Of a stretch of DNA of 64,000 nt, positions 26,888 through 44,527 are shown piece by piece (position 1 is the stretch's first letter; each line of letters begins with the position of its first letter). Below the pieces are notes generated by a model. That model saw only the letters and a list, made by a program, of their open reading frames with translations, was not told where the DNA came from and did not search any database. This DNA is from Prolixibacteraceae bacterium (lineage in GTDB: Bacteria > Bacteroidota > Bacteroidia > Bacteroidales > Prolixibacteraceae), in the NCBI GenBank assembly GCA_028282195.1, contig JANQII010000148.1:24322-88321 (forward strand), given 5' to 3'. The translations under genes and the position numbers were made by a program.

Positions 26888-27604
26888 CTAAATAAACTTC
26901 TCCCTTTTCTGTAAATTGAACAGACCGTAAAGCATAAATAGCAAAGTACCAATAACCAAAAACAATCGGTTTTTAAGGGCAATGCCTTCCCAAATCATTT
27001 CATTCATATTTTGTGGCACCTGAAATGGGTTCAGGAAAATATTCCATTGAGTACGTTCCAGGTTTTCACTCAAAATTAAAGCCAGAACTCCTACGACAAT
27101 CATTACCACAGCCGTTCCGTTTCCATTTTTCACAATGGTTGAAAACATGAAAGCCAAACTTCCCAGAAACAAAACCGGGTACATTACCTGCCACGACATT
27201 TCCAATAAATTAATCGGAGTTAAAAAAATGTACGCCAAACCTGTAAAACCTAACAGCAGGACAAAAACCAGTATAAAAACCATTACCAATCTTACCAGCC
27301 ACACTTTGTAGCGATAGTCAGGAATCCCAAACAGTATCTCCAGAATTCCAGAGTCCACATCATTTTGAATACCAAAGGTCATTGGGTAAAAAATCAGCAG
27401 CATAGCAGGAAAAAGTAATATATCATAAACGAATTCTTCATCCGGCAATTCGCCATTCCAAACCCCTGAAATTGAAATAAACACATAAAAGGCTAAGGCT
27501 GCCAATAAAAACCAGATAAAGCGCCCTGCAAAAATTATTCGCATGTTATAGCGAACCATCCGGGTTATCAGGTTCAGTGTGTTTTTTATTTTTTTAATGT
27601 TCAT
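26888..27604 (-). CDS. ABC-2-type membrane permease (6 TM)
   Basis: 238 aa, six hydrophobic helices, last gene of the pump operon. Confidence 0.6.
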   Translation of the reverse strand: MNIKKIKNTLNLITRMVRYNMRIIFAGRFIWFLLAALAFYVFISISGVWNGELPDEEFVYDILLFPAMLLIFYPMTFGIQNDVDSGILEILFGIPDYRYKVWLVRLVMVFILVFVLLLGFTGLAYIFLTPINLLEMSWQVMYPVLFLGSLAFMFSTIVKNGNGTAVVMIVVGVLALILSENLERTQWNIFLNPFQVPQNMNEMIWEGIALKNRLFLVIGTLLFMLYGLFNLQKREKFI

Positions 27605-27721
27605 TAAAAAATGAATTAATATTAATAGATCAAGTCATTCCGAGAACCTACCCAATTTTATTAGGCATAATGAGGAAATGACAGTTTATTTTTATTTATA
27701 AGACCCTTTCAGGTGCAAGCA

Positions 27722-27869
27722 CACTGACAGGTCTTTGTCTTTCCCAAAACCTGTCAGCGTTCACAGAACCTGACAGCGTTGAAACAACTGAACAAAAATC
27801 TGTCATTGGCAACTTGTTTCGGAATCTGTTCCCTATAGAGATCCTGATCCCGAGTACTCGGGACAGGAT
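27722..27869. repeat. Intergenic repeat cluster (CTGWCAG words plus REP-like hairpin)
   Basis: AACCTGTCAGCGTT (27748-27761) and AACCTGACAGCGTT (27767-27780). Hairpin ATCCTGaTCCCGAGtaCTCGGGACAGGAT (27841-27869). Confidence 0.55.
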
Positions 27870-27893
27870 GACTCTTTTACTATGGTCTGTATA

Positions 27894-30800
27894 TCACTTC
27901 AAATCCTTTATCAAACACAGATACGCATCTTCAAGTACCGGTTTGGCCTGTAAAGCACCCTCTGCAGGTTTATCCTTGCCAAGTACGCGCACACGAATCA
28001 TGTCCTCAACACGCATATGATGAACCACCATTTGCTTATTTGGCATTTTATCAAATTCTGAAGCTGGCACATCATATTGCCATACCAAATCATCTGCCAG
28101 ATTAACCATGTCAACAGGTGTTCCATGATATTTTACCCTGCCACGGTTAATTACAGCTACCTGGTTACACGAACTGGAGATATCTTCAATAATATGCGTT
28201 GAGAAAATCACAATTCGCTCACGGCTCAGTTCTACCAACAGGTTTCTAAAACGAATCCGTTCCCTTGGATCAAGACCTGCCGTTGGTTCATCAACCACCA
28301 GGATTTTTGGTAAATGAAGCAAAATCTGCGCTATCCCAATTCGCTGTTTCATACCCCCTGAAAACGAACCAATTTTATCGTTTCGTTTCTCCCACATATG
28401 CACCGATTTCAGTACATACTCAATTCGTCTCTCCCGGGTTTCCTTATCTGCCAAACCTTTGAGCAATGCCTGATATTCGAGAAATTCAATGGCAGGCATA
28501 TTTTCATAGGTGCCAAACTCTTGCGGTAGGTAACCAATCAAACCTTGCAATTCTTCCCGTTTCTTTTGGGTGTCAATTCCATTAATCCAAATCTTTCCAT
28601 AACTCTGATCCAGAATTCCACAAATGATCCGCATCATGGTTGATTTACCAGCCCCGTTTGGACCAAGCAAACCAAACATTCCGGTTCCAATGTCAAGGGA
28701 GACCCCATTCAATGCTTTAAATGGCTGACGACGTTTCCCAATTACAGGAATCTGTTTTACCAGACGGAAAATACTTCTCCTTAATGCACCAAAACGTCCG
28801 GTAATTCGATCAATATTAATTTTTTCTTCGTACAAGCGTTTTGCTGTGACGAAAACCAATAAGCTCAAATACCATAAAACCACCACTGTTACAACCAGTC
28901 CTATTGAATCCGTTTTCTTCCATAAAAAGAACAGCTCAACTAAAGGCAAAATCCAAAACAAGAATCCTTTACTATACTTGTCTGTTAAAAGGAATCTTTT
29001 TCTACGATTAACCTCAAATCGACGATTTAGGTAAATACCAAATGGACTCCACATTCGATTAACGAATAAGTAAACAGCTACCACCAAGGCAATTACCCAA
29101 AACGATGGATTCAGGAAAATAAAGGTGAAATAGATCATGAAGCCTAGTAACGGCAATTGCCAGATCAATTGGTCAAATTCTTTAATTGATTGGTATTCTT
29201 TTTCCAAACCAGCGCGCCTGCGAATATTTAATCCCCCTTGCCACTCCCTGGAGAAACGAGCCGGACGATCGTAAATCTTGACCAGATTTTGAACAACAAT
29301 ATGCAGCTTTTCATCTTCCCCAATCAGGCGTGTACCTGCTTTTTTCAAACTATTTAAAACAAACCAGGTCGTTCCCGGAACCAAAACAATTGCCAATACG
29401 GTATCCAGCATCTTCCAGACAGTAGAATCGACATTCGTGTAAATCAGCACAAAGGCTCCAGTCATTGCCGCCAACTGAAATACTTTCAGTTTCCAATTCA
29501 GTTGATAAAACCACTGTAAAGCACTTTCCAGTCCTGAATAAAAGGTTGGAATAAAAATAAGTGTCAGCAACGTACTTAAGGCCAAACCACCTATAACAAT
29601 AATGGCAAATGGAGCACCAATTACGCTAACATATTCTGCCTGCCCCATCGCCAATGGCATCATAGCAACAATAGTCGTAATTGCTGTAATCAGAATAGGA
29701 CGCACGCGAGACAAACCAGCCGTCATCAATGCCCGTGACCTTCGATAGCCACGTTTGCGAAGAATATTGCTGTAATCAATTAATATGATTCCATTGTTTA
29801 CCACAACCCCCAGTAAAATCAAAAATCCAATCATCGTATTGGCATTGAACAAACTGTTTCCTGTTATTATCAAAGCAAGCAATGATCCTATTGCAGCCAG
29901 GGGAATTGAAAACAACAAGACAAAAGGCGTGGCAACCGATTCAAACACCGAAGCCAAAATCATGAATATTAAGATGATTGCCGCCCAAATAAGGAAGTTA
30001 AATTCAGCCAGTTCATTTTCTTCATGAATGATTTCAGCAGCTACTCCTGAAGGGAAATTATAACCTGCAATCAACTCATCAATTTCATACCGATAAGATG
30101 CAAGCAAATCTTTGGATTCCTGAGCCTCATCAATCATGCTGTAGGTAATCTCAATCTGTTTCTCCTGATTAACCCGATTTATCCCAGCCAATCCCCGGGC
30201 ATAAATTAACCGGCTAAAATCTTCCAACTCATGCAGACCTCCTGCAGCATCACTAACCTGCAGTGCTTTCAGGTCGTCCATGGTTCGAACATCCTCATCT
30301 TCATCCGTTTCTTCGCCCTGTTTAATTACAATTTCATATTCATCCACGCCTTGATTGAACATCACTCCAGTGCTAATGTCTCCGGAAAATGAATTCAATT
30401 CAGAAGATACTTCTGATGCCTGGATATTGTACTCTGTCATTAACAGCGGATCAAAAATCATCTGAACCTCCGGTCGATTATCAGAAACATTAACCCTTGC
30501 CCGCTCAATAAAATCCATTTCTTCCAGAAAGTATTCGATATCGTTGGCAATGGTCTGCATCAGTTCAAAGTCTTCCCCTTTCAATACAATCTTCTCTTCC
30601 TCTGCCCCAATTCCAAGTAGCCGTTCAAAATCACCCATCATATTCCGACCAGCACCTCCAAAGTTTCTGTTCGTTTGTACCTGCTCAAATGAAATTTCTG
30701 CCTGATCAATATTTTTAGTCAGCTCATTTATGGATGACTTTATTTCAGCAAAGGTCCTCCCGTCAATTTCTTCGTATTCTTCAACCAACCGAACTGTAAC

Positions 30801-32600
30801 AACTGCTTCTTCCTCCTCAATCCGACTAATAACATCCAACTTTTCCTTTACATCTTCCAGTTTCTCTTCAATCTTAGCAACTGTCTTATCGGTGGTTTCA
30901 AGGCTAGATCCAGATGGCATTGTGACAAATAGTTGCACCTGTTCTTCTTCAACTTCCTGCAAGGAACTCACGCTAACTGCCAGGCTAATAAAAACGGTCA
31001 GGAAGAAAATTGTTACCCCCCCGATAATTGTTGCCAGTGGTTTGCGCATGCTAGATTTCAGCAATAGCAGGTAAATCTGGACCATTCGGTTATTCGTCGT
31101 AACCTTCTCGTAAAAGATGCTTTTTCCTTTTCTTCTTTTCAAAATGAGATGAATAGTCATTGGCACAAACAGCAAAGCTACAGCCAGAGAAACCAATAAG
31201 GTGGAAATGATAGAAACCCCGACATTTTTACCCAGCATTTCAATCATAAAATTGGTTGAAAAAACAAATGGTAGGAAAACGGTTATTGTCGTCAATGTTG
31301 CTGCAACAATGGAACGCCAAACTTCAGTTGTTCCCTGAATCACGGCTTTATCACTATCCACACCTTTCCCGGAAAGCCGGTAAATATTTTCAAGCACTAC
31401 GACACTATTATCCAGAAGCATACCGATGGCCAATGCCATGCCAACCAGCGTCAGGCTATTCAGGGTAATATCATAAGCATAAAAGAAGTTGAAAGCGGTA
31501 AAAACTGAAACAGGAATGGCTAACGCAATGAAAGCTACTATTCGAATATTCTTCAGAAAAATCCACAACACAAAAACTGCCAGCAGCCCACCGATAAGTG
31601 CCAAATCGATAATCTGATCAATGTTCTCCTCCATGGTTTCAGCAGCATTGTGCTGGATAACAATTTCAATATCCTTACCCGAAAGCCTATTATTCAGTTT
31701 TGCAATCAACTCCTGTGTATCATGGGATAACTCGATCTGGTTGGCTTGCGAATCATTAATCAACTGAATAGTGACTGCTTCTTTACCATTTACACGGCTA
31801 AAACTGGTTTCTTCCTTTACACCAAACCGAACCTCGGCAATATCTTTCAAAAGAATTGGACCATCAGCCACAACCAGGTTTTCGATGTCGGTAATTTGAT
31901 CGTATTCAGCGGTAACATGCACGAAATAAAGTCGGTCCTTTTCTTTCAGGTTGCCAACATAACTTCGGGATTGTGAATTCTGCGAAAGCTTGGAACGAAT
32001 TTGTCCCGGGGTAATCTGGTAAGCTTCGCATGCCTCCATGTCCAGGATCAGCTCAATTGATTTTTCCTGCCCGCCATAAACATTTACCCCGGCAATACCA
32101 TCCAGGTTTTCAAGGTCAGGAGCAATTTCCTGATCAACCAAATTCCGAACACGATTTATGCCTCCGCTGCCCCGGGCCTGCAGCTCCATGAATTGTGCGT
32201 CAATCTGCGAAAGATCAACCCGCGTAACATCTACCTGAACATCTTCAGGCATGCTACTTTGAATTTCGTTTATTTTTTCCTGAAGTTTGAGATAGGCAAA
32301 ACCAGAATCAACATCTTTCTGATAATACACCACAATCATTATCCGCCGGGAAGTAATATTGGTCTCAAGCGACTCAATGCCTTCTAAAGTGCTGATAGCT
32401 CCCTCCAAAGGAATAGCAACTTCATTCTCCAGATATTCAGGGTCAGCTTCACGAACGGACATTGCCTGAACAAAAAGGAAAGGCAATTCAGCATTAGGCA
32501 ACAACTCCATCTTTAGCTGCTTGTAGGACACGTAACCCAAAAGGGTCAGTCCAATAAACAACATGGAAATGAATGTTTTTCTATCTATTATAAATTTCAT
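27894..32600 (-). CDS. Fusion protein: RND efflux permease, extra TM helices and an ABC ATPase
   Basis: Continuous 1568-aa ORF. RND part is aa 1-1030 (GMLLDNSVVVLENI). ABC part has Walker A GPNGAGKST, signature FSGGMKQR, Walker B ILVVDEPTAGLD and H-loop STH. Confidence 0.85.
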   Translation of the reverse strand: MKFIIDRKTFISMLFIGLTLLGYVSYKQLKMELLPNAELPFLFVQAMSVREADPEYLENEVAIPLEGAISTLEGIESLETNITSRRIMIVVYYQKDVDSGFAYLKLQEKINEIQSSMPEDVQVDVTRVDLSQIDAQFMELQARGSGGINRVRNLVDQEIAPDLENLDGIAGVNVYGGQEKSIELILDMEACEAYQITPGQIRSKLSQNSQSRSYVGNLKEKDRLYFVHVTAEYDQITDIENLVVADGPILLKDIAEVRFGVKEETSFSRVNGKEAVTIQLINDSQANQIELSHDTQELIAKLNNRLSGKDIEIVIQHNAAETMEENIDQIIDLALIGGLLAVFVLWIFLKNIRIVAFIALAIPVSVFTAFNFFYAYDITLNSLTLVGMALAIGMLLDNSVVVLENIYRLSGKGVDSDKAVIQGTTEVWRSIVAATLTTITVFLPFVFSTNFMIEMLGKNVGVSIISTLLVSLAVALLFVPMTIHLILKRRKGKSIFYEKVTTNNRMVQIYLLLLKSSMRKPLATIIGGVTIFFLTVFISLAVSVSSLQEVEEEQVQLFVTMPSGSSLETTDKTVAKIEEKLEDVKEKLDVISRIEEEEAVVTVRLVEEYEEIDGRTFAEIKSSINELTKNIDQAEISFEQVQTNRNFGGAGRNMMGDFERLLGIGAEEEKIVLKGEDFELMQTIANDIEYFLEEMDFIERARVNVSDNRPEVQMIFDPLLMTEYNIQASEVSSELNSFSGDISTGVMFNQGVDEYEIVIKQGEETDEDEDVRTMDDLKALQVSDAAGGLHELEDFSRLIYARGLAGINRVNQEKQIEITYSMIDEAQESKDLLASYRYEIDELIAGYNFPSGVAAEIIHEENELAEFNFLIWAAIILIFMILASVFESVATPFVLLFSIPLAAIGSLLALIITGNSLFNANTMIGFLILLGVVVNNGIILIDYSNILRKRGYRRSRALMTAGLSRVRPILITAITTIVAMMPLAMGQAEYVSVIGAPFAIIVIGGLALSTLLTLIFIPTFYSGLESALQWFYQLNWKLKVFQLAAMTGAFVLIYTNVDSTVWKMLDTVLAIVLVPGTTWFVLNSLKKAGTRLIGEDEKLHIVVQNLVKIYDRPARFSREWQGGLNIRRRAGLEKEYQSIKEFDQLIWQLPLLGFMIYFTFIFLNPSFWVIALVVAVYLFVNRMWSPFGIYLNRRFEVNRRKRFLLTDKYSKGFLFWILPLVELFFLWKKTDSIGLVVTVVVLWYLSLLVFVTAKRLYEEKINIDRITGRFGALRRSIFRLVKQIPVIGKRRQPFKALNGVSLDIGTGMFGLLGPNGAGKSTMMRIICGILDQSYGKIWINGIDTQKKREELQGLIGYLPQEFGTYENMPAIEFLEYQALLKGLADKETRERRIEYVLKSVHMWEKRNDKIGSFSGGMKQRIGIAQILLHLPKILVVDEPTAGLDPRERIRFRNLLVELSRERIVIFSTHIIEDISSSCNQVAVINRGRVKYHGTPVDMVNLADDLVWQYDVPASEFDKMPNKQMVVHHMRVEDMIRVRVLGKDKPAEGALQAKPVLEDAYLCLIKDLK

Positions 32601-32625
32601 CCGTCGAGTTTATTTGCTACCAACA

Positions 32626-35600
32626 TTAATTTCTTCTAAACCGGTCACGAATAACTTCAATTCCTTCGTACATACATGGGATAACCACCAGCGTCAACAA
32701 GGTTGAAGTAATCAAGCCGCCAATTACAGCCAAAGCCATAGGCGAACGCAATGATGCGCTTTCTCCGATTCCCAAAGTCAATGGGAACAAGGCCAGAATT
32801 GTGGTTAAGCTGGTCATAATAATTGGACGAATCCGTTGTTGCCCGGCCTGCAATATGGCTTCCAAACGTTCCATGCCGGATTTGCGCAACTGCAATATCC
32901 GATCGACCAGAATAATCGAATCATTTACTGCAATCCCCACCAACATAATGATACCGATATAAGCCATAATGTTAAAGGTTTTCCCAAGCAGAAAGAACGT
33001 AAGTACCGAGCCAACAGCTGCCAACGGGATTGTAAGCAAAATTGTAAACGGGTGCAGCAATGACTCAAACTGGGAAGCGAGCACCATGTACACCAAAATG
33101 ATTGAAAGCATTAAGGCAAAGCTTAAACTCGCCATTGATTCCCGGCGTTTTTCTTCTTCACCACTAATGTTAATCCTGTAATCCGGAGGCACATTAATTG
33201 GGGCTATGGCAGTTTGGATTTCCTTAACTGCCTTATCCAAAGGCATATCTTTTTCGAGTTGTGCGGTAATTTTGCCAATTCGATTTTGGTTTCTGCGGAA
33301 AACTTCTTTGGGTGATTGTCCAATGGTAATATCAGCCAATTCATTTACCCTAAATTCCTGATCATTGCTAACGATACGCAGTTCATCCAGTTGACTTAAA
33401 TTTTTATCGGGCAGTTTGATAGTAATGTCCTGCATTTCACCTTGTCGCTCAATTTCTCCAGCAACTTTACCTTCCAGTTGATTTTGAATTTGAGAAACGA
33501 TATTGGTTACACTCAGGTTAAACATACCTGCCCGTAAGCGGTCAATCACGACTTCAACTTCAGGGGAACCTTCTTCCAACGATGATTCAAAATTGTACAT
33601 CCCCGGTAGGTTTTGCACACGCTCTTTTACTTCAGCAGCCAATCCCTCAATGATCTCCAAATCTTCACCCTGAACTTCAATCACCAGCGGGGCTTCATCT
33701 GTGCCCATAATGCTTTTTAGAGCTGTCTCATCTTGTTTGAAATTAATCTCCATACCTGGCAAATCGCCAACTACCCGGCTAATGGATTGAATGGCTTTGG
33801 TTGAAGCAATCTGGCTTTCCGGTTTCAAAATGATTTTTATAGTCGCGGTATTCTCTCCTTCAAAAATATCGGTAGATGAGCTGCTGATTCCTTTTGTTGG
33901 TCCAATATGACTGTAAACAGTTTCAATTTCACCACCCAACAGTTCAGAAATAATTGTTTCAAGGTTATCCACAGCTGCTGTGGTACGCTCTAATCGAGTC
34001 CCTTCCTGCATCCGAATTTCTACACTGAATTCACGCGTTTCAGTTTTTGGCATGAATTCATTTCCAATAAGCGGAATAAGAAAAATTGATCCCCCAACCA
34101 ATAAAAAGCTTATTAGAATTATTGCCCATTTTGCTTTTAATATTTTTTCGAGAAAACGTCCGTAACCTTTTACCTTAACCGATTGAATTTTCCGTTCTTT
34201 TTTCTTCTTATAAAAAAGATTAAAAAGCATTGGAATAACCAATATGGCAACGACCAACGAAGACAAAAGTGAAAATGCTACCGTCCATGCCTGGTCTTTG
34301 AACAACTCGCCAGAAGCACCATGCAAATAAACAATAGGCAGAAATACAATAATCGTTGTTATTGTTGAAGCTGTAATTGCCCCGCCAACCTGGGAAGTCC
34401 CAACAATTGCAGCCTCACGAACAGACATCCCATTTTCATGATTTCGGAATATATTCTCCATGACCACAATGGCATTATCCACCAACATACCGGCACCAAG
34501 CGCAAGGCCACCTAAGGTCATAATGTTCAGGCTAAGGCCATTGAAATACATTAGGTTAAATGTAGCAATAACCGAAATCGGAATAGCAATACTGATAATT
34601 AATGTGCTTCCAAATCTTCTTAAAAAGATAAACAGAACAAAAACGGCCAACACAACTCCCAGCAAAGCAGATTCCTCAACTTCATTGATTGCATCGTTAA
34701 TAAAACTTCCCTGGTTTGTGACTACTTGAATATTATAGCCGGGCAATGCCTTTTGAATTTCGGTAAAAGCCTCATCAATTTGCTCTACCGCTTTAACCGT
34801 GTTAAAGCGGGTTTCTTTATAAATTGAAAGCCCCAGGCATCGGTTACCATTTAACCTTACAATGTTTTCGGGGTCTTTATTTTGAAAACTAACCGTTGCA
34901 ACTTCACGCAAAAATATGGGGGCAAACGAAGCTGTATTGTCGTCTGCAATTACTCGCTTATAGCCAACAATCACTTCCTCAAAATCTTCGATATCTGTTA
35001 ATAAGCTTACACCTTTTACCACATAACGCAAGCCCATTTCTTCAATGGAACCGCCCGAAATATCCTGGTTAAAACTTTGAATACGACTGCTGATTTCATC
35101 CATGGTCAGCCCGTAAGCATCCAACAAATACTGGCTGGTTTCAATCAGCACTTCATTGTCTTCTGAACCTGACACTTCAACATCAGCAACCCCTTCCAAA
35201 CGAATCAGCTCATTACGGATATAATTTTCAGCTACTTTGCGTAATTCATTCATATCATCAATCGATGAATGGCTTAACCCATAAACCATTACTGGTGACG
35301 TATTCGGGTCATGTTGGGTAATGTTGATCTCATCAATTTCTTCGTTCTGCGCAAAAGATGTAACTGCTTTTTGCAAATCCAGGAAAGCATCATCCATATC
35401 TTTATCCCAGGCATACTCTACTGTAATTTGTGCGCTCCCAACTTTTGAAACAGAAGATACCTGAACAACATCCGACTGCCGAATTGCCAAAGCTTCCAGG
35501 TTTTCCACAAACTGTTTTTCCATTTCTTCAGGTGGCCGTTCCCCTGATTCCAGCTCAATAAACAACCTGGGGTTGTTCAGCTCCGGGAACAGGTCAACCC

Positions 35601-35700: not shown

Positions 35701-35712
35701 GGTTAATCCTTT

Positions 35713-36771
35713 CTATTTGATGATTTTCACTTTTGAGCGGTTTCTCAATGTCTCGAAACCTTTGACAACAAGCCGGTCATTAGCTTTCAACCCGGATGTT
35801 ATTTCAACCATATCTTCGTTTTCGTAACCAAACGTGACTTGTTTCTGCTCAGCTGTTCCTTTAACCACGATAAAAACAGATTTGCCACGCTGATTGGAAA
35901 CCACAACATCTTTTGGAATGACTATTACACTATCTTTCCGGTCGAGAATTATTTCTGATTGAACAAACATCCCGGGACGTAATTTCAAATCGTCATTACT
36001 GATGGTCAGTTTACCAAGAAATGTGCGTGTCTCGGTACTAATTGCAGGCGATAATTCGCTGACAACTCCTTTTAATGTGTCATCAGGCAGGGTGTAATTC
36101 ATCACCCGAACTTCCTGTTTCTGCTTCACATCATTAATATACTTTTCCGGAAGGTTTACTTCAAGCAGAAGTTTTTCATAGCTCATCAGACTAACTACAG
36201 CAGTTGCACTTGCTACCTTTGTACCTTTTGTAAAATATGGAAGTTCAGTGATTACCCCTCTAAACGGGGCCCGGACCTTCATCTTTTCCAACTGGATTTC
36301 GGCACGCTCAAAATCATATTTTGCATTGATAAATGAAACTTCTGAATTGCGAAATTCCCTCAAGGTCACTCCCCCTTTTTCATAAAGCGACTCCTGCTTT
36401 TGAAACTCTTGCTCAGAAATCTCCAGATTTAGTTTTTTCGACTCCAAAGCAATGCCATTCACATACTCTTCATCTTTCAATTCAACGATAACCTGTCCTT
36501 CATTCACTTGATCGCCCAACGCAAAAGGTCTTCCGGTTTTAGGATTGACGGCCAGGTAATAATCCCCTGCCATTTCAGTTATCAGGCTTACTTCTTTAGT
36601 TGCAACAACGGTTCCGGTCGTGTTGATGGTTTGCTCAATTGATCCTGGTTTTAGATCATCAACCGAAACTGGAATTGCCAGATCAGCCTCAACATCCTGG
36701 GTTTGATTGTTACAGCTTGCCAATGCAAAAAGCAAAAGCATAAATAATGGGAAGTGTATTTTTTTAATCAT
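35713..36771 (-). CDS. RND periplasmic adaptor (MFP) lipoprotein
   Basis: Lipobox LFALASC and hairpin/lipoyl/beta-barrel pattern. ATG at 36771 avoids overlap with the TolC stop. Confidence 0.9.
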   Translation of the reverse strand: MIKKIHFPLFMLLLFALASCNNQTQDVEADLAIPVSVDDLKPGSIEQTINTTGTVVATKEVSLITEMAGDYYLAVNPKTGRPFALGDQVNEGQVIVELKDEEYVNGIALESKKLNLEISEQEFQKQESLYEKGGVTLREFRNSEVSFINAKYDFERAEIQLEKMKVRAPFRGVITELPYFTKGTKVASATAVVSLMSYEKLLLEVNLPEKYINDVKQKQEVRVMNYTLPDDTLKGVVSELSPAISTETRTFLGKLTISNDDLKLRPGMFVQSEIILDRKDSVIVIPKDVVVSNQRGKSVFIVVKGTAEQKQVTFGYENEDMVEITSGLKANDRLVVKGFETLRNRSKVKIIK

Positions 36772-36778
36772 GACGATA

Positions 36779-38257
36779 TTATTTTTGACGTTTTTCGATG
36801 ATTTCTTCAGGAACAATTCCAATGTTATTTTCAAAATCGTAAAGGGTCTGGATTTTCAGGTTCAGCAATTCAATTTTGTAATCAATTAATGATTGCGCAT
36901 AAGCCATCTTCCTTTCTGAAAGCTGGGTCTGGAACAGGTTCAGGTCCATACTTGTCAGATCCCCATTGGCGTAACGCTCCAGGTTTATTTCGTAGGTAAG
37001 TTGAGCATTCTTCTCGCTTTGTTTGGCTATCTCAATCTGGTTCAACTGGTTTTGAAGGTTTCGGTATACCTGCCGGATATCAAGGACGATCTGGGTTTTC
37101 TGCTCATCAAAGCTCAATTCCTGTGTTTTTATAACTGCCTCCTGCGCTTTTATCCGTGATTTCTTTTCGCCCCAATCCCATAAAGGAATATTGAAGCCAA
37201 CAGAAACACGAGGGTTGTTGGTAGGATTGTCATAAATATTATTGATCTTTTCATCTTCGCCAATTATCCCGATTGAAAGGTTCAAATCCCCCTTAAACTC
37301 ATTCATCCCCTTCGTGCGGATTAACTGGAACTGTGAGGTTTCAATATCAATCTCACGCTGGCGGATTTCCATTCGGGAATTTATGCCATGATCAATTGCC
37401 TTTACCAGGTCAACTTCAACCGGAAGTGCTTCAACATTGGCCATTACCCCGATCTCTTCCATAATGTCCATTCCTATGTATTGTTTAAACTGGTCTTTTG
37501 CATTTTCCAGTGTTACCTTCTTATTCTGCACATCGGATTGTGCCGTAGCATAGTTCAATTCCGCCTGGTACAACTCTTCTTTCGCTGCCAGGCCAGCTTC
37601 AACTTTGTTTTTGGTAATCTCGTAACTCTTTTGGGTATTGGTAAATTCATCCCTGGAAATACTTAAACTCATTTGTGCCAAATACACATTGTAAAAAAAC
37701 TGGGTCACACTTTTCTCAAGGTTCAGCTTCTGCATGGCATAACTTAAGTTGGCATTTTCCAGGTCCAGTTCCAGTTCTTTTAACTCCAGTTTTAATCGAT
37801 TGTAAGTGAACAATGGCTGGTTTAAGCTCAAATACAAATTATTGCTGAATGAGCGGTCTTCAACATTATTGAAATCACTGGTGCTGCGTTGCCAACCAAA
37901 CCGATTGTTCAATGCAAGGGTACCATCTGTCAGTAAAATGGGTTGCGAAACGGTAAAAGTACCAGATGCCCCCAAAGATTCCTGGGTAAACCACTGGGAA
38001 TTGAAATCATCAAACGAACGGGTTTTGCTATAATCGATTGGATTAAGGTTTAACGAAAACTGGGATTTTAATGCCGCATTTTGTGCATTTAGCGATTCCT
38101 GCGAACGTTCCAGGTTCAGCAATGAACGTCTGATATCCGGGCTGTTCCGGCTTGCAATCTGCAAAGCACTTTCCAGGGTCAGCAGTTGTTGTGCAAATAA
38201 GCTGCCCACTCCCAGGAACATCAGGATTATTAGAATATAAAATCGTTTGTTGTTCAT
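36779..38257 (-). CDS. TolC-family outer membrane efflux protein
   Basis: Signal peptide, two-fold internal repeat, long coiled-coil segments. Confidence 0.9.
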   Translation of the reverse strand: MNNKRFYILIILMFLGVGSLFAQQLLTLESALQIASRNSPDIRRSLLNLERSQESLNAQNAALKSQFSLNLNPIDYSKTRSFDDFNSQWFTQESLGASGTFTVSQPILLTDGTLALNNRFGWQRSTSDFNNVEDRSFSNNLYLSLNQPLFTYNRLKLELKELELDLENANLSYAMQKLNLEKSVTQFFYNVYLAQMSLSISRDEFTNTQKSYEITKNKVEAGLAAKEELYQAELNYATAQSDVQNKKVTLENAKDQFKQYIGMDIMEEIGVMANVEALPVEVDLVKAIDHGINSRMEIRQREIDIETSQFQLIRTKGMNEFKGDLNLSIGIIGEDEKINNIYDNPTNNPRVSVGFNIPLWDWGEKKSRIKAQEAVIKTQELSFDEQKTQIVLDIRQVYRNLQNQLNQIEIAKQSEKNAQLTYEINLERYANGDLTSMDLNLFQTQLSERKMAYAQSLIDYKIELLNLKIQTLYDFENNIGIVPEEIIEKRQK

Positions 38258-38267
38258 ATCGTTATTT

Positions 38268-41200
38268 TTATTGTTTTATCAGTTTTATTGCGTCAGCTAC
38301 AACCATTCTGTTTTCAGATTCATTGCTAAGTTCAACAACTGCAGTATCTGGCGAAAAGTAAAAAGCACCCAGGTAGTTCCATCCTTCTTCAGCAGTCTTG
38401 ATGCTTAATGTTGCATCTTCTTCCCCATCATCATGGTGGATGGTATAATGATATTCCCCTTTTTCATCGCTGCCCCCTCTTCTTCCCCTTCTTCTATCTT
38501 TATAGATGTAGGAATAAACTTCATAATAACCAGCCTCAGAAATGGGTATGTTCCAACTAACCTTTAAGTCTCCATCACCCGAACGGATGTAATAAGCTGA
38601 GCGAACATAGGCTCCATAAAAATCGGAATGGGTTGTTTGAGTCCAGCTACGCGGTGGCCGCCAGCCTGAAAACCCGGAATAGTCTGATTTATTGACATCC
38701 TCTTTAATCAGGAGTTTTCTTAATAGGCTTTCATTATCACTTTTTGTTACCGTAAAAGAAGGGTCTTCATTATCCAGAATAATCTCGTTATCTTCTACTA
38801 TTCTTACCGGATCATCAACAACTTTTTCCCCTTCGAATGGTACTGCATCTTTATCTTCTTTTATATCTTCAAAAGGCATTCGTAGCGCTGAAGGTATATT
38901 CCTGGAAGTAAGTGTATTAATTGATGCACCCCTTGGGTTATCATTTAGCAAAAAGCTGACCTCCTTCGTTTGGTTACCGTCCAAATGAACCAGTTTAGAG
39001 ATCGTTTCAGGGGCACCCCCCATACCTCCAAAGCGACCGCCCCGGCCAGGTCCACCTCCCAAACGAAAATCAACAGAAATGATACCCTCAACATCTTCTG
39101 TATTTGTAAGCTTAAACTTCACCATCGTTTTTAACTGATCTCCGTCAAGTACATTTACAGCACTAACATTGCCAACCAAAAATGCCGGAAGCTTTGTACT
39201 GCTAAACCAGTTTTCCATGAATGGGATCAAGTCAATATCAAATTCTTTTTTTAGGGCATCATTAAAATCTTCAATAGTTGTTGTCCTGAATTTCACGCCA
39301 TTCAAATAACTGTACAGGAAATCTTCAAAAGCATCGTCCTCTGCTTTTCGTTTAATTGTTGAGAATAAAGCTTCACCTTTTTGCTGAATGACATTATCCA
39401 TAATTTGTACTTGTTCCGGGTCATTTAAAATTTCCTCGAAACTCTGTGAAAGTAAAGCCAGGTTGCCTTTCTCATCTTCAGACATTCCCTGAAGATCACG
39501 AACAAAACCAAACCTTGGATTATCTGTTGCCTGCTTTTTATAAGATTCGAAAACACGATCGGTAACCGGCCACTTATCAGAGCTTATATAGTAAGCATAA
39601 TTATAAAAAAGAGGGAAAGCATAATAGGGGTTCAACTTCTCTTCGACTTGTAATTCTCCTTGTCTTCTGTTAAAATCAGGTCGACCTTGCTCCTGAGTAA
39701 AGGATGCCAGAAAATTTTGCAGTACCCGGATTTTCTTCTCTTCCTTTGTCAGGTTTTCGTCGTCACCTCGTCCAAACCTTCTACGCGATTCCATCCGCCC
39801 ATAAAAATCCGCTTCCCTTACCAATAATCCTTTTTCAGCAAAAAGAACCATTTCGGGTTGTATGTTTTCCCTTGAGCCAGTCAGAATTCTTTCATAAGAA
39901 TAAAACTGAAGCGGAACTTCAACCAGGGAAAAACGCTCAAACGGGTAAAACAAATCGATATTCCGCTCAAAATCCTGTAACGATTCAGTAATAATATCCG
40001 GGATTGTATCTTTTATTTCTTCGAAGAACTCCGAAAAGTAATCGTGTCCTTTCAGGTAATAAATAGTGAATTCAAGCCCATCAATATCTGCATTTTTCTT
40101 TTCATAGTTGCCAATAGAAAGTGATATTTGCGATTGGGCGTGAGTTGATTCAAAAACAAAATCATCATCTTGCACCTCCACCAAACCTTGTGAAACAGGA
40201 ATTAAGTTAGGAGTAGCCTTTACCTGTAAACGATAATCGCTAAACTGCCGGGAAAACCATTGTTTGTTCTCTTCCCCATAGCCTGCTCCTGGTATTGGAT
40301 ACCAATTACATTCGCGGGTCAATAATACATATTCATGGGTAACGAATGCGTGTCGTTTATCAATCTGGTACAAGAAGTTTCGATAAGTTTCTTTTCTTGT
40401 TTCATCCTCAACATCCAAATAACAGGCAGCTTCATTAATTGTACCTTCATAAATAAAGTTGATTTTAGCTCTTTCCTTTTGTTTTAAATCAAGTCCGGTT
40501 AATTCTACTATTCCCAGGTTCTGCTCAAAAGGATGCTGCTTACCATTAACTTTTACCTCTTTTACTACCAAACCGGGATTAAGGCTGAAAATTACCCTAT
40601 TGATAACTTCTGACTCCCGGTTCCTGACAGACAGTTCTGATTCACATAAAATCTTATTCCCAAGATGCTCCAGCTTAATATCGTATGATCTGACTGATAC
40701 CTGCTTCGAATCCTTGTAGCTATCGTTCAAACTAATCATCTCTGCCCTAAGGTTCTGTTCTTTCAAAAAAGAATGTACATGCAAATATCCCAGATACAAG
40801 CTCCCAACAAAACAAATAGTTCCAAAAACTCCAGAGAACCAACGCATTGAAGTTGAGTGGGGCAAGCGTCTTAACAGCAGAACTGAATAAAAAATAAAGG
40901 CAAGTCCAAACCCAAAATACATGCCCCGATGGGTTAGGATTGTATCAATATTTCCAAAGCCTACAAAATCTGAATAAGCTAGCGGAATATTGTAGGCCAT
41001 ATAATCAAAGAGGTAGTAAAACTTATCTTGCAAATAGAACAAGGAAATAGCAACATATCCTAACAGGACCACAAACGTTACTGCCTGGTTTCGAATGAAG
41101 GACATCACGACAAAAGACAGGCCCATTATAAAAATAAGCGTGGGTAAACTAATCACCAGAAAATAATAGATATAGCTTATCCAATTTACATCGGTATGCT

Positions 41201-41615
41201 TTGTGATTAAATTAAAAATGAGTGCAATGAGTAAAATAATAATATTCAAAACAACGAATACCAGAAGATTTCCTATGGTTTTCCCTACAACATATTCTCC
41301 GTTAGTCATTGGGCGCATATAAATTACTTCCGTGGTATCCAGTTTTTTATCACGTTTCAAAAAATCGGAGGCCAGGAAGATGGCAATAATGGCCTGAACT
41401 ACATTCAGGAACAGCAAATTTATATATGGTATTAATGACGGCAACCCTTTAAGCGACCATTCCCCGGCACCACCATTCGACTCTATTAATACGCCAAAAT
41501 TGAATAATGACAAAAACACCATTGAAATGATGGCAAATATGCGGAAGAACCAACTTCTTAAAAGCGTTTTCGTTTCGTAACGTGCAATGGATCGTATGTT
41601 GTGAATTGAAATCAT
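38268..41615 (-). CDS. ABC-2 permease domain fused to a large M1-aminopeptidase-like ectodomain lacking HEXXH
   Basis: N-terminal region of about 290 aa with 6 TM helices. Extracytoplasmic region of about 800 aa. Gly/Arg-rich segments GGPGRGGRFGGMGGAP and RRRGRRGG. C-terminal tail ...VVADAIKLIKQ. Confidence 0.7.
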   Translation of the reverse strand: MISIHNIRSIARYETKTLLRSWFFRIFAIISMVFLSLFNFGVLIESNGGAGEWSLKGLPSLIPYINLLFLNVVQAIIAIFLASDFLKRDKKLDTTEVIYMRPMTNGEYVVGKTIGNLLVFVVLNIIILLIALIFNLITKHTDVNWISYIYYFLVISLPTLIFIMGLSFVVMSFIRNQAVTFVVLLGYVAISLFYLQDKFYYLFDYMAYNIPLAYSDFVGFGNIDTILTHRGMYFGFGLAFIFYSVLLLRRLPHSTSMRWFSGVFGTICFVGSLYLGYLHVHSFLKEQNLRAEMISLNDSYKDSKQVSVRSYDIKLEHLGNKILCESELSVRNRESEVINRVIFSLNPGLVVKEVKVNGKQHPFEQNLGIVELTGLDLKQKERAKINFIYEGTINEAACYLDVEDETRKETYRNFLYQIDKRHAFVTHEYVLLTRECNWYPIPGAGYGEENKQWFSRQFSDYRLQVKATPNLIPVSQGLVEVQDDDFVFESTHAQSQISLSIGNYEKKNADIDGLEFTIYYLKGHDYFSEFFEEIKDTIPDIITESLQDFERNIDLFYPFERFSLVEVPLQFYSYERILTGSRENIQPEMVLFAEKGLLVREADFYGRMESRRRFGRGDDENLTKEEKKIRVLQNFLASFTQEQGRPDFNRRQGELQVEEKLNPYYAFPLFYNYAYYISSDKWPVTDRVFESYKKQATDNPRFGFVRDLQGMSEDEKGNLALLSQSFEEILNDPEQVQIMDNVIQQKGEALFSTIKRKAEDDAFEDFLYSYLNGVKFRTTTIEDFNDALKKEFDIDLIPFMENWFSSTKLPAFLVGNVSAVNVLDGDQLKTMVKFKLTNTEDVEGIISVDFRLGGGPGRGGRFGGMGGAPETISKLVHLDGNQTKEVSFLLNDNPRGASINTLTSRNIPSALRMPFEDIKEDKDAVPFEGEKVVDDPVRIVEDNEIILDNEDPSFTVTKSDNESLLRKLLIKEDVNKSDYSGFSGWRPPRSWTQTTHSDFYGAYVRSAYYIRSGDGDLKVSWNIPISEAGYYEVYSYIYKDRRRGRRGGSDEKGEYHYTIHHDDGEEDATLSIKTAEEGWNYLGAFYFSPDTAVVELSNESENRMVVADAIKLIKQ

Positions 41616-41627
41616 AGTCTGTTGCCC

Positions 41628-42521
41628 TTAACCATTAGTCCATTGATTATGCTTACTCTCCATAAAATACACATAGGCATGCTCCAGGTTTGGATCAATA
41701 TTGTGCCCGTAGTAGCCATTAATTTCATCCGCCACAACCTGAATTTCCCAACCTTCGCTGGTTGGAACATTCGAGATGACCGGATACTTTTCATTGATTT
41801 CCATGTACTCGCTTTCCGTCGCTTTAAGTAGCCAAACTTTTCCTTTGGTGTGTTCTACCAAATCATCAGGTGAGCCGCTGTAAGCCAATTCTCCCCGGTT
41901 AAGCAAAGCCATGTTCTTACATGTGCTGGATATGTCTCCGACAATATGGGTCGAAAGAATAATGATCACATCATTCGTTGAGATGGTTGAAAGAAGGTTT
42001 CGAAAACGAATCCTTTCTTCCGGATCGAGCCCGGTAGTTGGTTCATCAACCACAATAATCTGCGGGTTGTTAATCAAAGCTTGTGCAATTCCCAGCCGTC
42101 GTTTCATCCCTCCCGATAGCTTATTGGCCTGCCGGTCACGTGCCTCAAAAAGCCCAACCTCTTCCAACATTTTATCAACTGCACCAGACCGTTCACCTGC
42201 CGATTTCATTCCAGCTAAACGTGCGGCATAATCCAAAAACTCGTAAGTTTTCAATTTTGAAAAGAAGCGGAAATCCTGCGGCAGATAGCCAAGCATTTTA
42301 CGAATCTCCTTCCGGTTCTTTACCAAATCGTACCCATTTACGCTAACCTGCCCTTTTGATGGTTTCATTAGCGTAACCAGGATCCGCATCAAACTTGATT
42401 TACCTGCTCCGTTTGGACCGAGCAGCCCGAACATGCCATTTTCAATGTTAATGTTTACATCGTTAAGTGCCCTGTTGCCATTTGGGTAAATCTTACTTAG
42501 TTGGTCTATTTTAATGTTCAT
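41628..42521 (-). CDS. ABC transporter ATP-binding protein
   Basis: GPNGAGKSS, LSGGMKRR, IIVVDEPTTGLD. Paralogue of the ATPase domain in 27894-32600. Confidence 0.92.
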   Translation of the reverse strand: MNIKIDQLSKIYPNGNRALNDVNINIENGMFGLLGPNGAGKSSLMRILVTLMKPSKGQVSVNGYDLVKNRKEIRKMLGYLPQDFRFFSKLKTYEFLDYAARLAGMKSAGERSGAVDKMLEEVGLFEARDRQANKLSGGMKRRLGIAQALINNPQIIVVDEPTTGLDPEERIRFRNLLSTISTNDVIIILSTHIVGDISSTCKNMALLNRGELAYSGSPDDLVEHTKGKVWLLKATESEYMEINEKYPVISNVPTSEGWEIQVVADEINGYYGHNIDPNLEHAYVYFMESKHNQWTNG

Positions 42522-42670
42522 GCTTAACAGCTATTGCCAGAATAATTTAGTAAGTAGACTTATTAAACTTCAATTCGTTTAATTTATTTGACAATTAAAT
42601 TAAGGAGAAGTTACTATAATCTTTTAAAGTTTTTCAATAAACCAATATTGTTTAAAGACAAAAATGAAAA

Positions 42671-43724: not shown

Positions 43725-43725
43725 T

Positions 43726-44523: not shown

Positions 44524-44527
44524 GGCT

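What the first reader, a model, noticed from the sequence alone, without database searches (positions are those of the whole stretch)
26888..42521. Seven-gene operon interleaving a TolC-MFP-(RND)2 pump with two ABC-2 transporter sets
All seven genes lie on the minus strand. The first six are separated by gaps of 10-25 nt. In order they are:

- ABC ATPase (297 aa)
- ABC-2 permease with a large ectodomain (1115 aa)
- TolC (492 aa)
- MFP lipoprotein (353 aa)
- RND (1024 aa)
- RND-ABC fusion (1568 aa)
- after a 290-bp REP-containing gap, a 238-aa ABC-2 permease

The two ATPases are clear paralogues, sharing MFGLLGPNGAGKS and C-terminal extensions. Each has a candidate ABC-2 membrane partner. Two RND paralogues in one operon recall heteromeric pumps of the MdtBC type.

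The arrangement suggests one envelope-spanning machine that couples ATP- and PMF-driven modules, not two unrelated transporters placed together by chance. The substrate is unknown. A YtrA-type GntR/ABC operon lies immediately upstream on the same strand (42671-45343).
Basis: inference. Interest (0 to 1): 0.75.

Follow-up and report, generated by a model that had tools for sequence, protein, structure and literature searches.

The report
RND efflux pump fused to ABC ATPase
A seven-gene operon, kept intact across many Bacteroidales genomes, encodes an outer-membrane-spanning RND efflux pump in which one RND subunit is covalently fused to an ATP-binding-cassette ATPase and is always accompanied by a second ATPase and two ABC-2-type membrane proteins, an architecture I could not find described anywhere.

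Summary
All seven minus-strand ORFs are at the stated coordinates with the stated domains.

The 1568-aa protein is a real fusion: a full RND permease, six extra transmembrane helices, and an intact ABC ATPase. It is one ORF in nearly all of about 70 related genomes. Its linker occurs only behind a full RND domain.

The ATPase is unusual. Its first beta strand is separated from the rest of the domain by a roughly 175-aa insertion of four membrane helices.

The gene order is ATPase, 1115-aa ABC-2 permease, OMF, MFP, RND, RND-ABC fusion, 238-aa protein. It held in essentially every locus long enough to test, in two scans with independent seeds (80 genome loci, 80 metagenome loci). The 238-aa protein has no family match, but its predicted fold resembles only type-V (ABC-2) exporter membrane domains.

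Both RND paralogues lack AcrB D408 and K940. A motif, TTAAAC-N16-RGTC, lies before the first gene in 65 of 70 loci and looks like an ECF-sigma promoter.

Best reading: one composite exporter in which an ATP-driven ABC-2 module is tethered to a heteromeric RND/MFP/OMF pump. The coupling mechanism and the substrate are inferred. I found no literature on it.

The parts
42557..42582 (-). Conserved promoter-like motif TTAAAC-N16-AGTC, 35 nt before the start codon of the first gene. It resembles an ECF-sigma promoter (-35 'AAC', -10 'GTC').
   Evidence: Present with a fixed 16-nt spacer, 25-40 nt upstream, in 65 of 70 related loci. Shuffles expect 0.26 of 70. It is the only correctly placed site in the window.
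41628..42521 (-). Stand-alone ABC ATPase (297 aa), ABC-2/DrrA/GldA-like, with all catalytic motifs and a C-terminal extension.
   Evidence: Pfam ABC_tran 111 bits. NCBIfam drrA 199 bits and GldA 194 bits, both below cut-off. Motifs seen. Directly precedes the 1115-aa gene in 72/72 loci.
38268..41615 (-). ABC-2 permease (1115 aa). Membrane domain in about residues 1-290. The remaining roughly 820 aa form a large, presumably periplasmic domain with an M1-peptidase-like region lacking HEXXH/GXMEN and a C-terminal Golvesin_C domain.
   Evidence: Pfam. Hydropathy and motif search. No NCBIfam match and no solved-structure sequence match.
36779..38257 (-). Outer-membrane factor (TolC family, 492 aa) with a signal peptide.
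   Evidence: Pfam OEP 167 bits, three stretches. Present in 60/60 and 57/57 loci.
35713..36774 (-). Membrane-fusion (periplasmic adaptor) lipoprotein. The likely start is M21 of the 373-aa ORF, giving 353 aa.
   Evidence: TIGR01730 186 bits, above cut-off 94.9. HlyD_D23. Lipobox LFALASC.
32626..35700 (-). RND permease 1 (1024 aa, GTG start). Relay positions are D408, N409, N926/D927, R958.
   Evidence: ACR_tran 726 bits. TM10 aligned to MdtB. Column counts over 63 orthologues.
29526..32600 (-). RND domain of the fusion protein (residues 1-1025). Relay positions are D397, N398, N935/N936, R967, invariant in the family.
   Evidence: ACR_tran 544 bits over residues 2-1022. Best solved-structure match is MdtB 9lyq_B, E 7.6e-62. 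Counts over 69 orthologues.
29307..29525 (-). Two extra transmembrane helices after RND TM12 (fusion residues about 1036-1089), returning the chain to the cytoplasm.
   Evidence: AF2 model me3c7dc97623f, helices 42-62 and 66-95 (model residue + 994 = protein residue), mean pLDDT 84.6. Conserved in the family.
29265..29306 (-). Displaced first beta strand of the ATPase domain (LHIVVQNLVKIYDR, residues 1099-1112).
   Evidence: Aligns to NIKIDQLSKIY of the 297-aa ATPase once the insertion is removed. Predicted as a strand, model residues 107-118. LVKIY.R is nearly invariant.
28728..29264 (-). Insertion of about 175 aa in the beta1-beta2 hairpin of the ATPase domain: one amphipathic helix and four transmembrane helices (residues about 1113-1291).
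   Evidence: AF2 helices 121-136, 145-168, 172-204, 207-236, 239-264. In 1.84 billion representatives the linker matches only 99 clusters. All 17 full-length hits are 1550-1585 aa with the match at about 1025-1295.
27894..28727 (-). ATPase core and C-terminal extension of the fusion (residues 1292-1568). Walker A, Q-loop, signature, Walker B with catalytic Glu, and H-loop are intact.
   Evidence: ABC_tran 99.5 bits. Motif residues invariant in 90 sequences. Fold matches to ABC-2-type ATPases: TM_1403 4yer, NosF 7osf_B, LptB.
27605..27893 (-). 289-nt spacer with hairpins and short inverted repeats between the fusion gene and the last gene. This spacer is mostly under about 50 nt in relatives.
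   Evidence: No second copy in the window. Spacer lengths in relatives.
26888..27604 (-). 238-aa six-helix membrane protein, the candidate ABC-2 (type V) membrane partner of the fused ATPase.
   Evidence: No Pfam or NCBIfam match. AF2 model pLDDT 78.8. Of the 15 best solved-structure fold matches, 14 are type-V ABC membrane domains or half-transporters (KpsM, PmtCD, ABCG1, NosY, ABCG2) and one is CcmB; prob 0.85-1.0 for 14 of them, E 0.06-0.9. Follows the fusion gene in 69/69 loci.

Best explanation
The seven genes encode one composite envelope-spanning exporter, transcribed as a unit from its own conserved promoter, which looks ECF-sigma-type.

Core. The core is a tripartite RND pump: outer-membrane factor, lipoprotein adaptor and two RND paralogues. 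These probably form a heterotrimer, as MdtB and MdtC do.

Tether. The second RND subunit carries six extra membrane helices and a complete ABC-2-type ATPase on its cytoplasmic C-terminus. An ABC module is therefore permanently tethered to the pump.

Partners. Its likely partners are:
- the 238-aa type-V-fold membrane protein encoded immediately downstream;
- the paralogous 297-aa ATPase;
- the 1115-aa ABC-2 permease with a large periplasmic domain, encoded at the head of the operon.

One economical stoichiometry uses one fused and one free ATPase, and one copy each of the two permeases. The precedent is E. coli YbhFSR, which has two ATPase domains, two different ABC-2 permeases and its own adaptor, YbhG.

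Proposed mechanism. The ATP-driven ABC-2 module extracts or flips an amphiphilic or membrane-associated substrate from the cytoplasm or inner leaflet. It delivers the substrate to the outer-leaflet or periplasmic entry of the adjacent RND trimer. The RND trimer expels it through the adaptor and outer-membrane channel.

Shown: domain composition, the covalent fusion, intact ATPase motifs, the split ATPase fold, strict co-occurrence and gene order, and the conserved upstream motif.

Inferred: the physical complex, the stoichiometry, the hand-over step, the energy source of the RND half, and the substrate. The substrate may be an envelope-stress-related amphiphile or peptide.
For: - The fusion is one ORF in the window and in nearly all of about 70 loci with the full gene. 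The few split cases look like frameshifted assemblies.
- The linker is specific to this family and always lies behind a full RND domain.
- ATPase motifs are invariant in 90 sequences. The fused ATPase is a 42%-identical paralogue of the operon's free ATPase, including the C-terminal extension.
- Co-occurrence was tested from two seeds: 69/69, 64/64, 62/62, 60/60 and 58/59, then 72/72, 57/57, 52/52, 42/42 and 41/41.
- In relatives the 238-aa gene abuts the fusion gene, and its predicted fold is type V.
- The 1115-aa protein passes the Pfam ABC2_membrane_2 cut-off.
- Genes upstream of the operon differ between lineages, while the TTAAAC-N16-RGTC motif is kept in 65/70 loci.
- There is no terminator-like site inside the operon.
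- Both RND domains match MdtB best.
- Precedent for an ABC-2 system working with an adaptor: YbhGFSR (PMC7190983). Precedent for a heterotrimeric RND: MdtBC (PMC8277102).
Against: - There is no direct evidence of a complex. Multimer modelling was not available.
- ABC ATPases act as dimers and RND pumps as trimers, so the stoichiometry is unresolved.
- The 238-aa protein's link to ABC-2 permeases rests on weak fold scores (E 0.06-1). It is not significant by profile comparison with the 1115-aa membrane domain (hhalign E 0.15).
- Periplasmic placement of the large domain of the 1115-aa protein is inferred from hydropathy only.
- The loci sampled were the 80 best matches of each scan, so more distant relatives could break the pattern.
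- The ECF-type reading of the motif is by resemblance only. No ECF sigma gene was found in the ORFs I scanned in the window.
Confidence: 0.5

Rival explanations
1. ATP-powered or ATP-gated RND pump. The fused ATPase, dimerising with a second fused copy or with the free ATPase, drives or licenses the conformational cycle of the RND trimer through the six-helix tether. It would replace or supplement proton flux. The ABC-2 permeases would serve as scaffolds or coupling elements, not as a separate translocation path.
For: Both RND paralogues lack two of the four AcrB relay residues. D408 is Asn and K940 is Asn, invariantly in the fusion (69 sequences) and nearly so in RND1. An unrelated RND pump next door in Bacteroides faecis keeps the canonical Lys. 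The ATPase is covalently attached next to TM12, and its own fold is threaded through the membrane by a four-helix insertion. That gives a plausible mechanical link.
Against: D407 and R971 equivalents are invariant. A single Asp/Arg pair supports proton coupling in other RND-superfamily members such as SecDF (my knowledge). ZneA also lacks the Lys. This reading does not explain why two ABC-2-type membrane proteins, one with an 820-aa extra domain, are strictly conserved. There is no precedent for an ATP-driven RND pump.
Confidence: 0.2
2. Two or three functionally separate transporters are kept together only for co-regulation or co-localisation: a conventional heteromeric RND pump; an ABC-2 exporter made of the 297-aa ATPase and the 1115-aa permease; and a second ABC-2 exporter made of the fused ATPase and the 238-aa protein. 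On this reading the tether has no mechanistic role beyond placing the exporters side by side.
For: Each ATPase has its own adjacent candidate permease. Both ATPases have complete catalytic motifs, so each could form a homodimer. Sequential action of independent inner-membrane exporters and RND pumps is established in other bacteria (my knowledge).
Against: The covalent fusion has been maintained without any unfused full-length form detected among 1.84 billion representatives. Gene order is invariant across families from Prolixibacteraceae to Bacteroides. That is stronger conservation than co-regulation usually imposes.
Confidence: 0.15
3. The ABC components act as a sensor or regulator of the pump, not as a transporter. 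They might detect substrate flux or envelope damage through the large periplasmic domain and switch the RND pump on. BceAB-type flux sensing is the analogy.
For: The 1115-aa protein carries a catalytically dead M1-peptidase-like domain and a Golvesin_C domain that could bind a ligand. The promoter motif resembles stress-responsive ECF promoters.
Against: No signalling output domain is present in any of the seven proteins. No regulator is conserved next to the operon. BceAB systems use FtsX-type permeases and a partner histidine kinase, neither of which is found here.
Confidence: 0.07
4. The 1568-aa ORF is an artefact: a sequencing or assembly frameshift joined an RND gene to a neighbouring ABC gene.
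For: None beyond its unusual length.
Against: The same single ORF occurs in isolate genomes (Gaoshiqia, Maribellus, Draconibacterium, Mariniphaga, Prolixibacter, Bacteroides faecis) and in many MAGs. The 267-aa linker is conserved and folds confidently.
Confidence: 0.01

Closest known systems
MdtABC-TolC (heteromeric RND pump of Enterobacteria; MdtB2C trimer)
   Same: One adaptor gene is followed by two RND paralogues in one operon. MdtB is the best solved-structure match for both RND domains here. Both work through a TolC-family channel.
   Different: Here the outer-membrane factor is encoded in the operon. The second RND carries six extra helices and an ATPase. Two ABC-2-type membrane proteins and a second ATPase are obligatory neighbours. 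D408 and K940 equivalents are Asn. The two paralogues are not one-to-one orthologues of MdtB and MdtC.
AcrAB-TolC / HAE-1 tripartite RND pumps
   Same: 12-helix RND fold with two large periplasmic loops, an adaptor lipoprotein and an outer-membrane factor.
   Different: Scores fall far below the NCBIfam multidrug RND cut-offs (442 and 604 bits against 1250). The proton relay is non-canonical. There is a covalent ATPase.
YbhGFSR of E. coli (ABC-2 exporter with its own membrane-fusion protein)
   Same: ABC-2-type system with two ATPase domains, two different six-helix permeases and an adaptor protein in one operon, thought to use TolC (PMC7190983).
   Different: YbhF fuses its two ATPase domains to each other, not to an RND permease. 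There is no RND component and no large periplasmic domain on a permease.
MacAB-TolC (ABC-driven tripartite pump)
   Same: An ATPase-energised inner-membrane component works with an adaptor and a TolC-family channel.
   Different: MacB is a type-VII (FtsX-like) four-helix permease with an N-terminal ATPase. Here the ATPases and permeases are of the ABC-2/type-V kind, and an RND pump is present.
Type-V ABC-2 exporters with accessory periplasmic partners (NosDFY, KpsMT-KpsE, GldAFG)
   Same: The ATPases resemble NosF, TM_1403 and GldA. The 238-aa protein's model resembles KpsM, NosY and CcmB.
   Different: GldA scores are below cut-off (181 and 194 bits against 402.6). None of these systems is fused to an RND permease. 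None has a membrane insertion in the ATPase's first hairpin.

Membership tests
Tripartite RND efflux pump (RND permease + adaptor + outer-membrane factor) | Full-length RND permease fold (12 helices, two large periplasmic loops) | tested here: met
   ACR_tran matched end to end in both proteins: 726 bits over 5-1012, and 544 bits over 2-1022.
Tripartite RND efflux pump (RND permease + adaptor + outer-membrane factor) | Cognate periplasmic adaptor and TolC-family channel | tested here: met
   TIGR01730 186 bits, above cut-off 94.9. OEP 167 bits. Both are in the operon in 62/62 and 60/60 loci.
HAE-1 multidrug RND (AcrB/MexB type) | Proton-relay network D407, D408 (TM4), K940 (TM10), R971 (TM11) | tested here: not met
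   The fusion has D397, N398, N935, R967. RND1 has D408, N409, N926, R958. NCBIfam multidrug RND models score below cut-off.
MdtBC-type heteromeric RND | Two RND paralogues encoded together after one adaptor gene | tested here: met
   30% identity; conserved in 64/64 loci.
MdtBC-type heteromeric RND | Formation of a mixed trimer | not testable with these tools
   Needs multimer modelling or biochemistry.
MdtBC-type heteromeric RND | Orthology to MdtB and MdtC | tested here: not met
   MdtB and MdtC equivalog models score 240-418 bits against cut-offs of 1584 and 1774.
ABC transporter ATPase (catalytically competent) | Walker A, Q-loop, LSGGQ-type signature, Walker B with catalytic Glu, H-loop | tested here: met
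   All are present in both ATPases and invariant in 90 fused homologues. Fold matches to ABC ATPases reach E 6e-20.
ABC-2 / type-V exporter membrane domain | Six-helix ABC-2 membrane domain recognised by a family model (1115-aa protein) | tested here: met
   ABC2_membrane_2 37.8 bits, above cut-off 27.2, over residues 10-194.
ABC-2 / type-V exporter membrane domain | Same for the 238-aa protein | tested here: inconclusive
   No Pfam or NCBIfam match. Only 3 of 37 family members hit ABC2_membrane_4, at E about 0.08. hhalign against the 1115-aa membrane domain gives E 0.15. The AF2 model's best 15 fold matches are nearly all type-V ABC membrane domains or half-transporters, with TM 0.46-0.61 for 14 of them, but E is only 0.06-1.
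MacB-type (type VII) ABC tripartite pump | FtsX-like four-helix permease with periplasmic domain and N-terminal ATPase | tested here: not met
   No FtsX or MacB domain in any protein. The MacA model scores 44.9 bits against a cut-off of 342.
GldAFG gliding-motility ABC transporter | GldA equivalog score | tested here: not met
   TIGR03522 scores 194 and 181 bits against a cut-off of 402.6.
M1 aminopeptidase | HEXXH-(18)-E zinc site and GXMEN motif | tested here: not met
   Neither motif occurs in the 1115-aa protein. The Pfam match is below cut-off, 26.9 bits against 27.7.
ECF-sigma-dependent promoter | -35 'AAC' and -10 'CGTC/GTC' elements about 16-17 nt apart, upstream of the regulated operon | tested here: inconclusive
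   The motif is conserved in 65/70 loci at a fixed spacing. However, neither the transcription start nor the cognate sigma factor is known.

The most novel reading that the evidence does not exclude
The system is a true hybrid primary/secondary transporter. ATP binding and hydrolysis by the membrane-threaded ATPase is mechanically transmitted through the six-helix tether to the RND trimer. In that trimer the classic Asp-Lys proton relay has been dismantled. This would be the first RND pump powered or gated by ATP.
Probability: 0.2. Interest if true: 0.92.

Novelty: new variant of a known kind. Interest (0 to 1): 0.78.

Why it matters
RND pumps are textbook proton-driven antiporters, and ABC exporters are textbook ATP-driven pumps. 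A covalent union of the two has not been described in the literature I could search.

This one is not a curiosity of a single genome. It is kept, together with five specific partner genes, across Bacteroidales from marine sediment Prolixibacteraceae to a human-gut Bacteroides.

If the modules cooperate, the system gives a defined case for studying how substrates are passed from an inner-membrane ATP-driven extractor to a periplasmic RND pump. It could also show whether ATP can drive an RND cycle.

It further defines three unannotated families: the linker, the 238-aa protein and the 1115-aa permease. It also identifies a probable stress-responsive regulon in an important group of gut and environmental bacteria.

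The ATPase domain with a four-helix membrane insertion in its first hairpin is a structural novelty in its own right.

Tried and rejected
- Literature. Seven searches found no description of an RND-ABC fusion. Four papers were also read. The search for 'RND-ABC' returned 0 papers. The Bacteroides transportome paper does not mention fusions. The iron-stimulon paper and the P. gingivalis review list only ordinary RND and MacB-like clusters.
- Bacteroides thetaiotaomicron orthologue. I tried to find it and a locus tag so I could look up fitness or expression data. The word-indexed protein search listed no protein longer than about 950 aa, so full-length named orthologues never appeared. Two contig look-ups were 'not on record'.
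- Assembly artefact. Rejected.
- REP or MITE in the 289-nt spacer. No second copy in the window.
- Structured RNA in the leader or spacer. No Rfam match.
- Sigma-70 promoter and terminator scan. Fewer hits than in shuffles, so uninformative.
- Homology of the 238-aa protein to the linker or to the 1115-aa membrane domain. BLAST found nothing and hhalign was not significant.
- Fold search of the linker plus ATPase model. ATPase matches dominated, so the six-helix bundle could not be classified.
- 25-nt palindrome at 42579-42603 as a conserved operator. It is not conserved in relatives.
- A conserved regulator next to the operon. None found. Upstream neighbours are unrelated housekeeping genes that differ by lineage. 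None of the window ORFs I scanned is an ECF sigma factor.
- Active peptidase in the 1115-aa protein. Rejected, since there is no HEXXH or GXMEN.

Full report
**1. Observation**

The seven minus-strand ORFs are present exactly as listed. Gaps between the first six are 10-25 nt, or a small overlap. The last gene follows after 289 nt.

Pfam and NCBIfam confirm these identities:
- an ABC ATPase (297 aa);
- an ABC-2 permease of 1115 aa (ABC2_membrane_2 above cut-off, a sub-threshold M1-peptidase-like match, a Golvesin_C domain);
- a TolC-family factor;
- an adaptor lipoprotein (TIGR01730 above cut-off; the true start is probably M21, giving 353 aa);
- an RND permease (1024 aa);
- a 1568-aa protein with a full-length RND domain (residues 2-1022) and an ABC ATPase domain (1297-1441).

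The 238-aa protein matches no curated family. The two ATPases are 42% identical through their C-terminal extensions, and the two RND domains are 30% identical. The upstream cluster does hold a short GntR-family regulator and an ABC ATPase. The 'REP' in the 289-nt spacer is not verified: it has hairpins but no second copy in the window.

**2. The fusion is real, conserved and monophyletic**

A search with the linker plus ATPase found thousands of relatives. Many carry RND and ABC Pfam domains in one protein, in Prolixibacteraceae and other Bacteroidales.

A scan of species-representative genomes matched about 590 stretches. The 80 best loci come from Sunxiuqinia and Gaoshiqia (78% identity, the closest), Mangrovibacterium, Draconibacterium, Maribellus, Mariniphaga and Prolixibacter. 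They also come from Rikenellaceae, Tannerella, Porphyromonadaceae and Bacteroides faecis MAJ27, plus two oddly binned MAGs.

In these loci the RND domain, linker and ATPase lie in one ORF. The few exceptions look like frameshifted assemblies.

A search of 1.84 billion representative proteins with the 267-aa linker alone returned only 99 clusters. All 17 full-length hits are 1550-1585 aa and match at residues about 1025-1295. The rest are fragments. The linker therefore exists only in this context, and I saw no unfused full-length form.

**3. Anatomy of the fusion**

An AlphaFold2 model of residues 995-1568 (90-sequence alignment, mean pLDDT 84.6) gives this order:
- RND TM12;
- two further membrane helices;
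- a beta strand (LHIVVQNLVKIYDR, residues 1099-1112);
- an amphipathic helix;
- four membrane helices;
- the rest of an ABC ATPase.

With the roughly 175-aa insertion removed, the strand and the following sequence align colinearly with the N-terminus of the 297-aa ATPase. NIKIDQLSKIY aligns with HIVVQNLVKIY, and then ALNDVN/ALNGVS leads into the shared GMFGLLGPNGAGKS.

The fused ATPase is thus a paralogue of the free one. Its first beta hairpin has been split by a four-helix membrane insertion. Walker A, Q-loop, signature, Walker B with the catalytic Glu, and the H-loop are invariant in 90 homologues. Fold matches are to ABC-2-associated ATPases: TM_1403, NosF, LptB, EcsA and ABCA.

**4. The partners**

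The 238-aa protein family has 5544 clusters at 90% identity. Almost all are named 'hypothetical', and two UniRef entries call it an ABC-2 permease. It has no Pfam model. It is not significantly similar to the 1115-aa membrane domain by profile comparison.

Its AF2 model (pLDDT 78.8) finds mostly one kind of structure among its best 15 matches. Fourteen are type-V ABC membrane domains or half-transporters: KpsM, PmtCD, ABCG1/2/5/8/25, NosY and one ABCA4 entry. The other is CcmB. For 14 of the 15, TM-scores are 0.46-0.61 and probabilities 0.85-1.0; the ABCA4 entry is weaker at TM 0.36 and probability 0.60. E-values are weak, 0.06-0.9. I treat it as a probable ABC-2-type partner.

The 1115-aa protein has its membrane helices in the first roughly 290 residues. 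An 820-aa domain follows. That domain lacks the M1 zinc-site motifs, so it is not a peptidase. It has no solved relative by sequence.

**5.

Two scans with independent seeds converge.
- From the fusion's linker plus ATPase (genome loci): the 238-aa gene follows in 69/69. RND1 precedes in 64/64, the adaptor in 62/62, the outer-membrane factor in 60/60, and the C-terminus of the 1115-aa gene in 58/59 loci long enough to tell.
- From the membrane domain of the 1115-aa permease (metagenome loci): the 297-aa ATPase precedes in 72/72. OMF, MFP, RND1 and the start of the fusion follow in 57/57, 52/52, 42/42 and 41/41.

Genes upstream of the operon differ between lineages and are unrelated housekeeping genes. 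The three unannotated genes downstream in the window are not conserved neighbours. The YtrA-type cluster is adjacent in only four related loci. The seven genes are therefore an autonomous, strictly conserved unit.

**6. Two further findings**

(a) A motif, TTAAAC-N16-(A/G)GTC, lies 25-40 nt before the first start codon in 65 of 70 loci, and in the window at 42557-42582. Its spacer is fixed at 16 nt in 64 of the 65. Shuffles expect 0.26 of 70. It resembles ECF-sigma promoters ('AAC' at -35, 'GTC' at -10; my knowledge of that promoter class). This suggests envelope-stress control. None of the window ORFs I scanned is an ECF sigma factor.

(b) Both RND paralogues depart from the AcrB relay.
- In alignment with MdtB, the fusion reads LLDNSVV and VVNNGI where MdtB reads VVDDAIV and VKKNAI.
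- RND1 reads LVDNAIV and AVNDSI.
- D407 and R971 equivalents are invariant. D408 and K940 are Asn, invariantly in the fusion and nearly so in RND1. RND1 has Asp or Asn one position later.
- One RND1 subclade has GRLVDD together with VSN, which looks like a compensating charge rearrangement.
- An unrelated RND pump 3 kb away in B. faecis has the canonical Lys. ZneA also lacks it.

Proton coupling is therefore neither excluded nor assured.

**7. Interpretation**

The evidence favours one composite machine: an ABC-2 (type V) ATP-driven module tethered to a heteromeric RND/adaptor/channel pump. The most economical composition pairs the fused and free ATPases with the two different permeases. This echoes E. 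coli YbhFSR-YbhG and the MdtBC heterotrimer.

I propose ATP-driven extraction or flipping of a membrane-associated substrate, followed by RND-mediated expulsion.

Rivals are:
- an ATP-driven or ATP-gated RND cycle;
- independent transporters kept together only for co-regulation or co-localisation;
- a sensory role for the ABC components.

These cannot be separated without multimer models, structures or genetics.

**8. Novelty**

No curated family covers the fusion, the linker, the 238-aa protein or the 1115-aa protein. Seven full-text searches found no description. [quoted passage not shown] Every part is of a known kind. The combination, and the membrane-threaded ATPase, appear to be new.

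**9. Limits**

- The loci are the best 80 of each scan, so distant relatives were not surveyed.
- Flanks were capped at 10 kb, so no single fetched locus shows all seven genes.
- Structures are monomer predictions.
- Fold support for the 238-aa protein is consistent in kind but weak in E-value.
- The substrate is unknown.

Noticed in passing
window 42557-42582 (minus strand); L082-L161 upstream of the ATPase gene: Motif TTAAAC-N16-(A/G)GTC lies 25-40 nt before the first gene in 65 of 70 loci, where shuffles expect 0.26. It resembles an ECF-sigma promoter. The cognate sigma factor is unknown, and none of the window ORFs I scanned is one.
   Followed up: partly
window 42579-42603: A 25-nt near-palindrome, TTAATTTAATTGTCAAATAAATTAA, overlaps the -35-like element. 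It could be an operator for the adjacent GntR-family regulator, but it is not conserved in related loci.
   Followed up: partly
L047, L055, L059, L064, L077 (RND1 orthologues): One subclade of RND1 has GRLVDD in TM4 together with VSN in TM10, instead of GMLVDN with VNN or VND. This looks like a coordinated rearrangement of charged residues in the putative proton path.
   Followed up: partly
window 27605-27893: The spacer between the fusion gene and the 238-aa gene is 289 nt here and carries several hairpins and CTGTCAG/CTGACAG repeats. In most relatives the two genes are under 50 nt apart. It may be an inserted small element or an internal promoter.
   Followed up: partly
window 42671-45379; L095, L102, L108, L128: The upstream cluster (ABC ATPase 283 aa, 265-aa and 231-aa proteins without Pfam matches, 126-aa GntR/YtrA-like regulator) sits next to the operon in four related metagenome loci but not in most others. 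There is no terminator-like site between it and the operon.
   Followed up: partly
window 45437-45465 (minus strand): A strong terminator-like hairpin (13-bp stem, 7 G-C pairs) lies just upstream of the GntR/ABC cluster. It marks the start of that transcription unit.
   Followed up: no
window 46543-49122 (plus strand); L001 8568-10615: A histidine kinase and an OmpR-family response regulator lie about 4 kb from the head of the operon in the window. A similar pair lies just downstream of the operon in L001. This may be coincidence or a second regulatory link.
   Followed up: no
window 23184-26635 (minus strand): Three consecutive genes (455, 348 and 344 aa) directly downstream of the operon have no Pfam match. 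They are not found next to the operon in any of the 80 genome loci.
   Followed up: partly
L069 (MAG labelled Chloroflexota), L070 (MAG labelled KSB1): The complete RND/fusion/238-aa arrangement, at 53-61% identity to the window, occurs on contigs binned to non-Bacteroidota phyla. This is either mis-binning or horizontal transfer.
   Followed up: no
L105 8166-8792, L119 6301-6903 and 7397-7996, and 10 other loci: A roughly 200-aa protein with weak type-IX-secretion C-terminal sorting domain and DUF3244 matches lies on the same strand just upstream of the operon in 13 metagenome loci.
   Followed up: no
L067 14961-19259 (Bacteroides faecis): A second, conventional adaptor and RND pair with the canonical TM10 Lys lies 3 kb downstream of the operon. 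It was useful as an internal control for the relay comparison.
   Followed up: partly
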